Below, piece after piece: positions 63,688 to 63,919 of a DNA stretch of 64,000 nt. The notes beneath the pieces are model-generated. The model saw only the letters and a list, made by a program, of their open reading frames with translations. It was not told the DNA's origin and ran no database searches. Where the stretch lies: NCBI RefSeq assembly GCF_046105845.1, contig NZ_CP151004.1, one strand, 5' to 3'. Position 1 is the first letter of the stretch; each line of letters opens with the position of its first letter. Position numbers and translations under genes: made by a program. Origin of the DNA: Escherichia coli (GTDB taxonomy: Bacteria; Pseudomonadota; Gammaproteobacteria; Enterobacterales; Enterobacteriaceae).

Positions 63688-63744
63688 GTTCTGCGCTGTT
63701 AACGCGTAATTTACATTCAACGCCCCGTTTGTGGGGCTAATTTC

Positions 63745-63905
63745 TTGTCGGAGTGCCTTAACTGGCTGAGACCGTTTATTCGGGATCCGCGGAACCTGAT
63801 CAGGCTAATACCTGCGAAGGGAACAAGAGTTAATCTGCTATCGCATCGCCTTTGCGGCGATCGTCTCTTGCTTCATCCGTCGTCTGACAAGCCATGTCCT
63901 TAACT
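63745..63905 (+). promoter_or_regulatory. TPP riboswitch (THI element) in the thiC leader
   Basis: THI-box core ctgagaccgtttattcgggatccgcggaacctgatcaggctaatacctgcgaagggaac immediately upstream of thiC. Confidence 0.7.
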
Positions 63906-63919
63906 TTTTGGAATGAGCT

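What the first reader, a model, noticed from the sequence alone, without database searches (positions are those of the whole stretch)
63688..63919. TPP riboswitch preceding thiC, with a GC hairpin after rsd
The THI-box core lies between rsd and thiC. A short hairpin (cgccccgtttgtggggc, about 63721-63737) follows the rsd stop and may terminate rsd or belong to the thiC promoter.
Basis: partly seen in the sequence, partly recalled or inferred. Interest (0 to 1): 0.25.

Follow-up and report, generated by a model that had tools for sequence, protein, structure and literature searches.

The report
Known E. coli thiC TPP riboswitch
This is the well-studied thiamine-pyrophosphate riboswitch that switches off the E. 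coli thiC thiamine-synthesis operon, so it is ordinary; the one loose end is a small, evolutionarily conserved hairpin just upstream whose job is not settled.

Summary
Both parts of the observation are real. Rfam's TPP model (RF00059) matches window 63739-63839 (+) over its full length at 74.8 bits against a gathering score of 54.3. RefSeq annotates the same 101 bases as a TPP riboswitch, and 5420 of 5426 complete E. coli genomes carry the region. The aptamer is base-for-base identical to that of K-12, whose thiC riboswitch has published mechanistic work: TPP-dependent RBS sequestration plus Rho termination at the start codon. The finding is therefore already known.

The hairpin GCCCC(G)-UUUG-(U)GGGGC is at 63722-63737 as stated. 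In 77 other Enterobacteriaceae rsd-thiC loci a hairpin sits at the same place with many different stem sequences, so the structure is under selection. It lies 9 nt downstream of a conserved sigma-70-like pair: TTGAGT, 17 bp, TAnnTT, with identical spacing in 78 of 78 loci. It scores as a poor intrinsic terminator in E. coli, and published Term-seq lists no 3' end there. My best reading, at about 0.5, is a transcribed stem-loop near the 5' end of the thiC leader rather than an efficient rsd terminator. This conflicts with the published primer-extension +1, which maps to 63738, the base right after the stem. Interest is low.

The parts
63684..63689 (+). Candidate thiC promoter -35 hexamer TTGAGT. 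It overlaps the rsd stop codon TGA at 63685-63687.
   Evidence: TTGA is invariant in 70 of 70 distinct orthologous sequences. The spacing to TAnnTT is exactly 17 bp in 78 of 78 loci. The hexamer is kept in Trabulsiella (L055, L056, L058), where it is not the stop codon. The Ala codon before the stop is always GCT, while the third position of the preceding Pro codon varies. The promoter function is inferred, not shown.
63699..63706 (+). Conserved block TTAACGCG inside the promoter spacer. Its function is unknown.
   Evidence: Alignment A2 columns 16-23 are at least 90% conserved, except column 22 (63705), which varies, while the distal spacer varies freely. This is unexplained. It could be a regulator binding site or a promoter-strength element.
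63707..63712 (+). Candidate thiC promoter -10 hexamer TAATTT.
   Evidence: The form is TAnnTT in all loci, with T1, A2, T5 and T6 invariant. It predicts a transcription start near A63719 or A63720. This is inferred, and it conflicts with the published primer-extension +1.
63722..63737 (+). Conserved GC-rich hairpin GCCCC(G)UUUG(U)GGGGC.
   Evidence: The fold is -10.8 kcal/mol. A hairpin occupies the same position in every one of the 77 other rsd-thiC loci, with 39 distinct 5' arms among the 68 loci scored, and 68 of 70 distinct sequences reach shuffle p <= 0.05. K-12 differs only in the loop and closing positions 63727 and 63732, and at 63721.
63738..63738 (+). Published primer-extension 5' end (+1) of thiC mRNA in K-12.
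   Evidence: I mapped it by matching ten numbered residues from PMC5234074 (C7, G16, G100, U131, U132, A138, C141, G142, U146, U184, C187, and C158 in the K-12 sequence) to the window. It is the first base 3' of the hairpin stem.
63739..63839 (+). TPP riboswitch aptamer (THI element).
   Evidence: RF00059 scores 74.8 bits and covers the full model. RefSeq has a riboswitch feature at the same bases. P1 is 63744-63748 paired with 63823-63827. CUGAGA is at 63766-63771, and the pyrophosphate-sensor helix ACCUGAUCAGGCUAAUACCUGCG is at 63794-63816. The aptamer is identical to MG1655.
63833..63834 (+). Very abundant RNA 3' end in the K-12 Term-seq data, just after the extended P1 stem.
   Evidence: The supplementary tables of PMC7815308 list MG1655 4196186 and 4196185 on the - strand, annotated 'riboswitch', with Rho score 2.38 marked 'Yes'. 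I converted coordinates as x = 63920 + (4196099 - coordinate).
63842..63863 (+). Stem-loop in the expression platform, lying within the region the literature proposes as the Rho utilisation (rut) site, 63837-63877.
   Evidence: The fold is. The 63837-63877 segment has composition C14 G9. The rut assignment comes from PMC5234074.
63883..63891 (+). 3' half of the anti-P1 stem (UCUGACAAG, published residues 146-154). It pairs with the 5' strand of P1 in the TPP-free ON state.
   Evidence: The duplex between 63738-63756 and 63876-63897 has dG -13.8 kcal/mol. The function is taken from PMC5234074.
63910..63925 (+). RBS (GGAAUGAG), the thiC start codon at 63920-63922, and the published pause and Rho-termination sites U184 (63921) and C187 (63924). 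The RBS-sequestering stem covers this stretch.
   Evidence: Predicted pairing with 63884-63899 has dG -13.7 kcal/mol. The termination sites are from PMC5234074.

Best explanation
The feature is the E. coli thiC TPP riboswitch, the leader of the thiCEFSGH operon.

Mechanism, taken from published work on the identical K-12 sequence. When TPP binds the aptamer at 63739-63839, P1 forms. The downstream segment then folds into a stem that sequesters the RBS and AUG at 63910-63925. A C-rich rut region is exposed, so Rho with NusG terminates RNA polymerase paused at the start codon (63921 and 63924). Without TPP, the anti-P1 segment at 63883-63891 pairs with the 5' strand of P1. This locks the aptamer open and frees the RBS.

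Sub-claim about the hairpin at 63722-63737, inferred, at about 0.5. It is a conserved RNA stem-loop transcribed as the first structured element of the thiC leader. The transcript would come from a conserved sigma-70-type promoter, -35 TTGAGT at 63684-63689 and -10 TAATTT at 63707-63712, with a predicted start near 63719 or 63720. That leaves only 2-3 unpaired 5' nucleotides. The hairpin probably shields the 5' end from RppH and RNase E and/or insulates aptamer folding from upstream RNA. In E. coli it acts at most as a weak terminator for rsd read-through.
For: Riboswitch:
- Full-length RF00059 hit at 74.8 bits against a gathering score of 54.3.
- RefSeq 'TPP riboswitch' feature at the same coordinates, between rsd and thiC.
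- Present in 5420 of 5426 complete E. coli genomes.
- Aptamer identical to MG1655.
- TPP model hits in 8 of 9 other genera and species tested at orthologous loci.
- Anti-P1 and RBS-sequestering pairings reproduced, at -13.8 and -13.7 kcal/mol.
- Mechanism documented in PMC5234074 and PMC11143247.

Hairpin and promoter:
- TTGA..-17 bp-TA..TT is invariant in 78 of 78 loci.
- The -35 is retained where it no longer overlaps the stop codon, in Trabulsiella. In Erwinia L082 the whole promoter has shifted 24 nt downstream and is still followed by hairpins and then P1.
- The hairpin core starts 7-11 nt after the -10 in nearly all loci.
- 68 of 70 distinct sequences fold significantly better than shuffles, while the promoter segment used as a control has median z +0.3.
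- Clean compensatory changes occur between close relatives: CCCACC/GGTGGG versus CCCGCC/GGCGGG, CTCCCTC/GAGGGAG versus ATCCCTC/GAGGGAT, and GACCCGTA/TACGGGTT versus GGTCCGTA/TACGGATT.
- The terminator d-score is -24 for the window and -13 for other Escherichia, and only 12 of 70 sequences score above 0. True rsd terminators in L065 and L072 score +14 and +17.
- No Term-seq 3' end is listed between MG1655 4196186 and 4196488, although weaker rsd-internal ends are listed.
Against: Nothing found here argues against the riboswitch.

Against the hairpin sub-claim:
- The only experimental 5'-end mapping, primer extension in PMC5234074, puts +1 at 63738, downstream of the hairpin.
- I could not obtain any dRNA-seq or Cappable-seq row for this locus.
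- Several genera, such as Enterobacter, L066 and L068, have a good U-tract after the stem and positive terminator scores. In those genera a terminator role is plausible.
- rsd carries a canonical terminator about 35 nt after its stop when thiC is absent, the same distance as this hairpin.
- The thiC mRNA half-life is reported as under 60 s, which does not suggest strong stabilisation.
- The -10 matches the consensus at only 3 of 6 positions, and the simple promoter scan did not flag it.
Confidence: 0.9

Rival explanations
1. The hairpin is the intrinsic terminator of rsd. The stem at 63722-63737 plus the U-rich tail UAAUUUCUU releases RNA polymerase arriving from the rsd promoters. thiC is then transcribed independently from a start just downstream, at 63738.
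For: The terminator-like scan flags it: 6 pairs, 5 of them G-C, with tail TAATTTCTTG. It sits 35 nt after the rsd stop, the same distance as the canonical rsd terminators in L065 and L072. Twelve of 70 orthologues score above 0 on the classical terminator discriminant, and Enterobacter-type tails are UUUUUCUU. The published +1 lies immediately 3' of the stem.
Against: The E. coli d-score is -13 to -24, and Salmonella and Klebsiella tails (AUGCCAUC, AUGUCAUC) are not U-tracts although the hairpin is conserved there. The K-12 Term-seq tables list no 3' end at the hairpin but do list weaker rsd-internal ends. The only conserved -35/-10 pair lies upstream of the hairpin, so an efficient terminator would also abort thiC transcripts. 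No conserved -10-like sequence exists for a start at 63738, because that DNA is the covarying stem and loop.
Confidence: 0.25
2. The published +1 at 63738 is the true transcription start. The hairpin is then untranscribed promoter DNA, with conservation reflecting a DNA-level role such as a spacer or discriminator property, or a protein binding site.
For: Primer extension in PMC5234074. A -35-like TTTACA at 63710-63715 is highly conserved.
Against: What is conserved is base-pairing potential, not sequence: 39 different 5' arms with matching 3' arms. That points to an RNA-level or single-strand-level constraint. From TTTACA, no -10-like hexamer lies at 16-18 bp in any genus. At the position a -10 would need, K-12 has A and the window strain has G at the key -11 base. 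From general knowledge, U is a rare initiating nucleotide. A 5' end exactly one base 3' of a GC stem is where a reverse-transcriptase stop or a structure-guided cleavage would map (inference).
Confidence: 0.15
3. The hairpin is a chance GC palindrome with no function.
For: The single-sequence z-score is only -2.5, and 4 of 200 shuffles fold as well.
Against: It is maintained at the same position in all 77 orthologous loci across about 20 genera despite complete turnover of the stem sequence.
Confidence: 0.02

Closest known systems
E. coli K-12 thiC TPP riboswitch (Winkler et al. 2002; Chauvier et al. 2017, PMC5234074)
   Same: It is the same locus. The aptamer at 63739-63839 is identical base for base. 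The anti-P1 segment, the RBS-sequestering stem and the start-codon pause and termination sites are at the same positions.
   Different: There are five substitutions in the intergenic region relative to MG1655. Three are at or next to the upstream hairpin loop (63721, 63727, 63732). Two are in the loop of the platform hairpin (63851-63852, TT versus CC). One is at 63895, where this strain has U and K-12 has the published pause residue C158.
Rfam RF00059 TPP riboswitch family (for example E. coli thiM and thiB)
   Same: It has the same aptamer architecture, P1 to P5 with CUGAGA and the pyrophosphate-sensor helix, and it scores above the gathering threshold.
   Different: The thiC expression platform is long, about 80 nt. 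According to the literature it acts on both translation and Rho-dependent termination, whereas thiM and thiB are described mainly as translational.
5'-terminal stem-loop mRNA stabilisers (ompA 5' UTR type; Emory, Bouvet and Belasco 1992, from my own knowledge)
   Same: There is a short GC-rich hairpin within 2-3 nt of the predicted 5' end, and its structure is conserved rather than its sequence.
   Different: The 5' end has not been shown to lie at 63719 or 63720. The published +1 is after the hairpin. No half-life effect has been measured, and thiC mRNA is short-lived.
Canonical rsd intrinsic terminators in genomes where thiC is not downstream (L065, L072)
   Same: They are GC hairpins about 35 nt after the rsd stop.
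   Different: Those have 8-9 bp stems followed by UUUUUU or UUGUUUAUUU and d-scores of +14 and +17. The E. coli hairpin has 5-6 bp, the tail UAAUUUCU and a d-score of -13 to -24.

Membership tests
TPP riboswitch (Rfam RF00059, THI element) | Covariance-model score at or above the curated gathering score over the whole model. | tested here: met
   74.8 bits against 54.3, model positions 1-105 of 105, E = 4e-14.
TPP riboswitch (Rfam RF00059, THI element) | Conserved ligand-contacting motifs: CUGAGA in the pyrimidine-sensor arm, and the ACCUGAUC..GG.UAAUACC..GCG pyrophosphate-sensor helix. | tested here: met
   CUGAGA is at 63766-63771 and ACCUGAUCAGGCUAAUACCUGCG at 63794-63816. Both align to the model consensus with posterior probability marked '*'.
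TPP riboswitch (Rfam RF00059, THI element) | Location in the 5' leader of a thiamine biosynthesis or transport gene, on the same strand. | tested here: met
   It lies 80 nt upstream of the thiC ATG on the + strand, and thiCEF follow.
TPP riboswitch (Rfam RF00059, THI element) | TPP binding and ligand-dependent repression. | not testable with these tools
   This is shown experimentally for the K-12 sequence (PMC5234074). The aptamer here is identical to K-12.
TPP riboswitch (Rfam RF00059, THI element) | An expression platform with mutually exclusive anti-P1 and RBS-sequestering pairings. | tested here: met
   The duplex energies are -13.8 and -13.7 kcal/mol at the published positions.
Rho-independent (intrinsic) terminator, as a reading of the hairpin | A GC-rich stem followed immediately by a U-tract, passing a terminator discriminant. 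| tested here: not met
   The stem is fine: 5 G-C pairs at -10.8 kcal/mol. The tail is UAAUUUCU, with tail score 1.99 and d = -23.9. Other Escherichia score -13, and only 12 of 70 orthologues score above 0. The controls score +14 and +17. The looser scan does flag it.
Rho-independent (intrinsic) terminator, as a reading of the hairpin | An RNA 3' end mapped a few nucleotides after the stem. | tested here: not met
   The K-12 Term-seq tables held for PMC7815308 have no entry between 4196186 and 4196488 in the two condition lists seen. This is absence from a list built with a score cut-off, not proof that no termination occurs.
Sigma-70 promoter, as a reading of TTGAGT-17-TAATTT | -35 and -10 hexamers with 16-18 bp spacing, with the key positions (TTG and TA...T) conserved in orthologues. 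| tested here: met
   All 78 loci have 17 bp spacing, and TTGA and TA..TT are invariant.
Sigma-70 promoter, as a reading of TTGAGT-17-TAATTT | A mapped primary 5' end 6-8 nt downstream of the -10. | tested here: inconclusive
   The published primer-extension end is 26 nt downstream of the -10, at 63738. No data specific for 5'-triphosphate ends could be retrieved.
5'-terminal stem-loop stabiliser | A hairpin within about 0-4 unpaired nucleotides of the mRNA 5' end, and a measurable effect on half-life. | not testable with these tools
   The position criterion is met only if the start is at the predicted 63719 or 63720. Half-life would need experiments.

The most novel reading that the evidence does not exclude
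[quoted passage not shown] It would be a processing site or a reverse-transcriptase stop at the base of a conserved hairpin. The native thiC leader would then begin about 19 nt further upstream and carry a 5'-terminal stem-loop conserved across Enterobacteriaceae. That stem-loop would affect mRNA stability, aptamer folding, or read-through from rsd.
Probability: 0.4. Interest if true: 0.3.

Novelty: already known. Interest (0 to 1): 0.12.

Why it matters
The riboswitch itself adds nothing new. It is one of the founding examples of the class, and annotation pipelines already label it.

The small point of possible value concerns the native 5' end. Many in vitro and reporter studies of the thiC riboswitch start the RNA at the primer-extension +1. 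If the native transcript actually starts upstream and includes a conserved 5' hairpin, co-transcriptional folding and decay measurements on the model construct would lack a natural element. It would also mean that rsd read-through transcripts feed into the riboswitch rather than stopping before it.

Tried and rejected
- RNAalifold on the MAFFT alignment of 70 promoter-to-P1 segments predicted no pairs. The hairpin arms differ in length and were aligned out of register. I replaced this with per-sequence folding against dinucleotide shuffles and inspection of compensatory arm changes.
- I looked for 5'-triphosphate-specific start-site data. The Cappable-seq and SMRT-Cappable-seq supplements held no rows for this locus. 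The dRNA-seq paper I tried by id was not held. Text searches found no other start-site statement.
- I tried to find thiC loci not preceded by rsd, which would separate 'leader hairpin' from 'rsd terminator'. The ThiC protein search returned only near-identical E. coli and Citrobacter entries among the 120 listed.
- I tested whether the published extended P1 (residues 1-6 with 91-95) covaries across genera, which would have shown that the bases right after the hairpin are in the RNA. Only the first two pairs are conserved, so the test is uninformative.
- I considered TTTACA (63710-63715) as a -35 and CCCCATTT in K-12 as a sigma-32 -10. I rejected both. No partner element lies at the right spacing, and the sequence is not conserved.
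- The second small hairpin at 63692-63708 is not conserved. Its 3' arm is the invariant promoter block while its 5' arm varies without compensation.
- The Rsd expression paper (PMC3089606) says nothing about the 3' end of rsd.

Full report
**What is in the window**

The last 1.7 kb of the window carries nudC on the minus strand (62343-63116) and rsd on the plus strand (63211-63687). A 232-nt intergenic region follows (63688-63919), then the first 27 codons of thiC from 63920. The stretch is Escherichia coli. A 901-base query covering it matches 5420 of 5426 complete E. coli genomes at 95-100% identity. RefSeq annotates rsd, a riboswitch and thiC under the match, with the riboswitch feature labelled 'TPP riboswitch' at exactly the bases the model finds.

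**Checking the observation**

The Rfam scan of 60000-64000 at a permissive threshold gives one strong hit. It is RF00059 (TPP) at 63739-63839 on the + strand, 74.8 bits against a gathering score of 54.3, E = 4e-14, covering model positions 1-105 of 105.

The hallmark motifs are present. CUGAGA is at 63766-63771, and the pyrophosphate-sensor helix ACCUGAUCAGGCUAAUACCUGCG is at 63794-63816. P1 is CUUGU (63744-63748) paired with ACAAG (63823-63827).

The stem is GCCCC/GGGGC (63722-63726 with 63733-63737), plus a possible G63727-U63732 pair. It folds at -10.8 kcal/mol with z = -2.46.

**Relation to the published system**

Aligned to MG1655, the window differs at nine positions in 401. None of them lies in the aptamer.

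I converted the residue numbering of Chauvier et al. 2017 (PMC5234074) to window coordinates. Their C7, G16, G100, U131, U132, A138, C141, G142, U146, U184 and C187 all fall on the right bases if +1 = 63738. Their C158 is C in MG1655 and U in this strain, at 63895.

With that mapping, their elements fall as follows:
- The anti-P1 segment (residues 146-154) is 63883-63891.
- The Rho termination and pause sites U184 and C187 are 63921 and 63924, in and just after the AUG.
- The proposed rut region (residues 100-140) is 63837-63877.

The two alternative pairings are reproduced here. Anti-P1 against the P1 5' strand gives -13.8 kcal/mol. The RBS/AUG-sequestering stem gives -13.7 kcal/mol.

The mechanism is taken from that paper, not shown by me. 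TPP binding stabilises P1, the RBS is sequestered, the rut site is exposed, and Rho with NusG terminates polymerase paused at the start codon. Without TPP, anti-P1 locks the ON state. A later paper from the same laboratory states that the thiC promoter is not TPP-regulated, which leaves the riboswitch as the sole known regulator (PMC11143247).

The K-12 Term-seq tables (PMC7815308) list a very abundant 3' end at MG1655 4196186 and 4196185. These correspond to window 63833 and 63834, directly after the extended P1. The entry is flagged 'riboswitch' and Rho-dependent.

**The hairpin: comparative evidence**

I fetched 80 loci encoding Rsd from one genome per species. They span Escherichia, Salmonella, Citrobacter, Klebsiella, Raoultella, Enterobacter, Leclercia, Lelliottia, Buttiauxella, Cedecea, Trabulsiella and others. 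In 77 of the 79 loci with a complete rsd, rsd is followed by the thiC leader. Two patterns stand out.

First, a DNA block is conserved with fixed geometry:
- The block is TTGAGT (63684-63689, overlapping the rsd stop), exactly 17 bp, then TAnnTT (63707-63712). It holds in 78 of 78 sequences including the window, with TTGA and TA..TT invariant.
- This is not a coding constraint. The rsd C-terminus just upstream is hypervariable in length and sequence.
- The Ala codon before the stop is always GCT, and its T is the first base of the hexamer. The third position of the neighbouring Pro codon varies.
- In three Trabulsiella genomes a frame change makes TTGAGT code for Leu-Ser instead of Ala-stop, yet the hexamer is retained.
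- In an Erwinia MAG (L082) the pair TTGAGC-17-TATGCT sits 24 nt further from the stop.
- This is the conservation signature of a sigma-70 promoter. It predicts a start near A63719 or A63720.
- The simple scan missed it because the -10 matches only 3 of 6 consensus positions.
- The promoter-proximal half of the spacer (TTAACGnG, 63699-63706) is also conserved. I cannot explain this.

Second, a hairpin always follows:
- Its core starts 7-11 nt after the -10 and ends 2-8 nt before the P1 strand.
- The sequence turns over completely between genera. Examples are GCCCC/GGGGC, CCCCCTC/GAGGGGG, GCTCCC/GGGAGC, ACCTC/GAGGT, GACCCGTA/TACGGGTT, TCCCACC/GGTGGGA and ACCTCGCC/GGCGGGGT. There are 39 distinct 5' arms among the 68 loci scored.
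- Close relatives show clean double substitutions: A-U to G-C in Cedecea, C-G to A-U in Klebsiella, and C-G to U-A in the Buttiauxella group.
- In 70 distinct sequences the segment between the -10 and P1 folds with median dG -12.2 and median z -3.1 against dinucleotide shuffles. Sixty-eight of 70 reach p <= 0.05. The adjacent promoter segment has median z +0.3.
- The structure is therefore selected.
- Within Escherichia the same trend holds. K-12 and the window differ at the loop and closing positions 63727 and 63732 and at the flanking 63721, not in the five G-C pairs.

**Terminator or leader element?**

I computed a classical terminator discriminant from stem energy per length plus a weighted U-tail. 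It uses the form of d'Aubenton-Carafa with ViennaRNA energies, so the calibration is only approximate. The results:
- The window scores -23.9 and other Escherichia -13.
- The median over 70 sequences is -18, and only 12 score above 0.
- Salmonella and Klebsiella tails (AUGCCAUC, AUGUCAUC) are not U-tracts.
- In the two genomes where rsd is not followed by thiC, rsd ends with a canonical terminator scoring +14 and +17.
- The K-12 Term-seq lists contain no 3' end between 4196186 and 4196488, although weaker rsd-internal ends are listed.

Because the only conserved promoter lies upstream of the hairpin, an efficient terminator there would also abort thiC transcripts. These points argue that in E. 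coli the hairpin is at most a weak terminator, and that it is transcribed as the first structure of the thiC leader. With a start at 63719 or 63720 it would leave 2-3 unpaired 5' nucleotides. From general knowledge, that is the architecture of 5'-terminal stem-loops that impede RppH and RNase E.

Some evidence points the other way. Enterobacter-type sequences do look like good terminators. thiC mRNA is short-lived, under 60 s. Above all, the published primer-extension +1 is at 63738, after the hairpin.

That position is exactly the first base 3' of the stem. No conserved -10 could serve it, because that DNA is the covarying stem-loop, and K-12 and this strain differ at what would be the -11 base. 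It would also initiate with U. I therefore suspect a reverse-transcriptase stop or a processed end, but this is inference. I could not retrieve any dataset specific for 5'-triphosphate ends for the locus. I put the leader-hairpin reading at about 0.5, the rsd-terminator reading at 0.25 and a true start at 63738 at 0.15.

**Verdict**

The finding is correct and already known. It is the textbook E. coli thiC TPP riboswitch, identical in its aptamer to the experimentally characterised K-12 element. Interest is low. The only mildly novel possibility is that the native thiC leader starts upstream of the accepted +1 and includes this hairpin.

Noticed in passing
L014, L017, L021, L030, L039, L040, L045 (inside the aptamer P3 loop); L026:2040-2170 (between the hairpin and P1): Several Citrobacter, Raoultella and Enterobacter species carry an insertion of about 115 nt in the P3 hairpin loop of the thiC TPP aptamer. 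The inserted sequence matches the ERIC/IRU repeat core (GTGAA.C.CCAGGAGCTTACATAAGTAAGTGACTGG.GTGAGC), which I recognised from memory of the ERIC1R and ERIC2 primer sequences. In L026 the same kind of element sits between the upstream hairpin and P1. With the insertion, the Rfam gathering-threshold scan misses the riboswitch in L014. Shorter remnants occur in L015, L019 and L020.
   Followed up: partly
window 63699-63706: The promoter-proximal half of the 17-bp spacer (TTAACGnG) is about as conserved across Enterobacteriaceae as the -35 and -10 themselves, while the distal half varies freely. No regulator of the thiC promoter is known. This could be a binding site or a promoter-strength element.
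   Followed up: no
window 63738: The published primer-extension +1 of thiC mRNA (PMC5234074) maps to the base immediately 3' of the conserved GC stem. This is where a reverse-transcriptase stop or a structure-guided cleavage would also map. No conserved -10 lies upstream of it at the right distance.
   Followed up: partly
window 63833-63834: The K-12 Term-seq data (PMC7815308) show one of the stronger 3' ends in this region right after the extended P1 stem. Measured from the published +1, this implies an abundant aptamer-only RNA of about 96 nt.
   Followed up: partly
window 63895 and 63851-63852: This strain has U where K-12 has C158, a published transcriptional pause residue. It has UU where K-12 has CC in the loop of the expression-platform hairpin. 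I did not assess any effect on pausing.
   Followed up: no
L065:2004-3050 and L072:2004-2100: In two 'Enterobacter sp.' genomes rsd is not followed by thiC. rsd ends with a canonical intrinsic terminator about 35 nt after the stop. In L065 a fimbrial-subunit-like ORF follows at 2478-3044. No TPP riboswitch is found there.
   Followed up: partly
L055, L056, L058 (Trabulsiella), about 1990-2013: A frame change extends the rsd ORF through the TTGAGT hexamer to a TAA 9 nt later, giving 170 aa. The thiC -35 element is therefore coding sequence there, yet it is unchanged.
   Followed up: no
window 61125-61209 (-) and 60620-60744 (-): There are sub-threshold Rfam matches to sX9 (31.7 bits against a gathering score of 44), mir-584 and mir-310, and to the S15 leader at 61347-61423. 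They lie in or next to the hemE and nfi coding region. All are well below their gathering scores and are probably chance.
   Followed up: no
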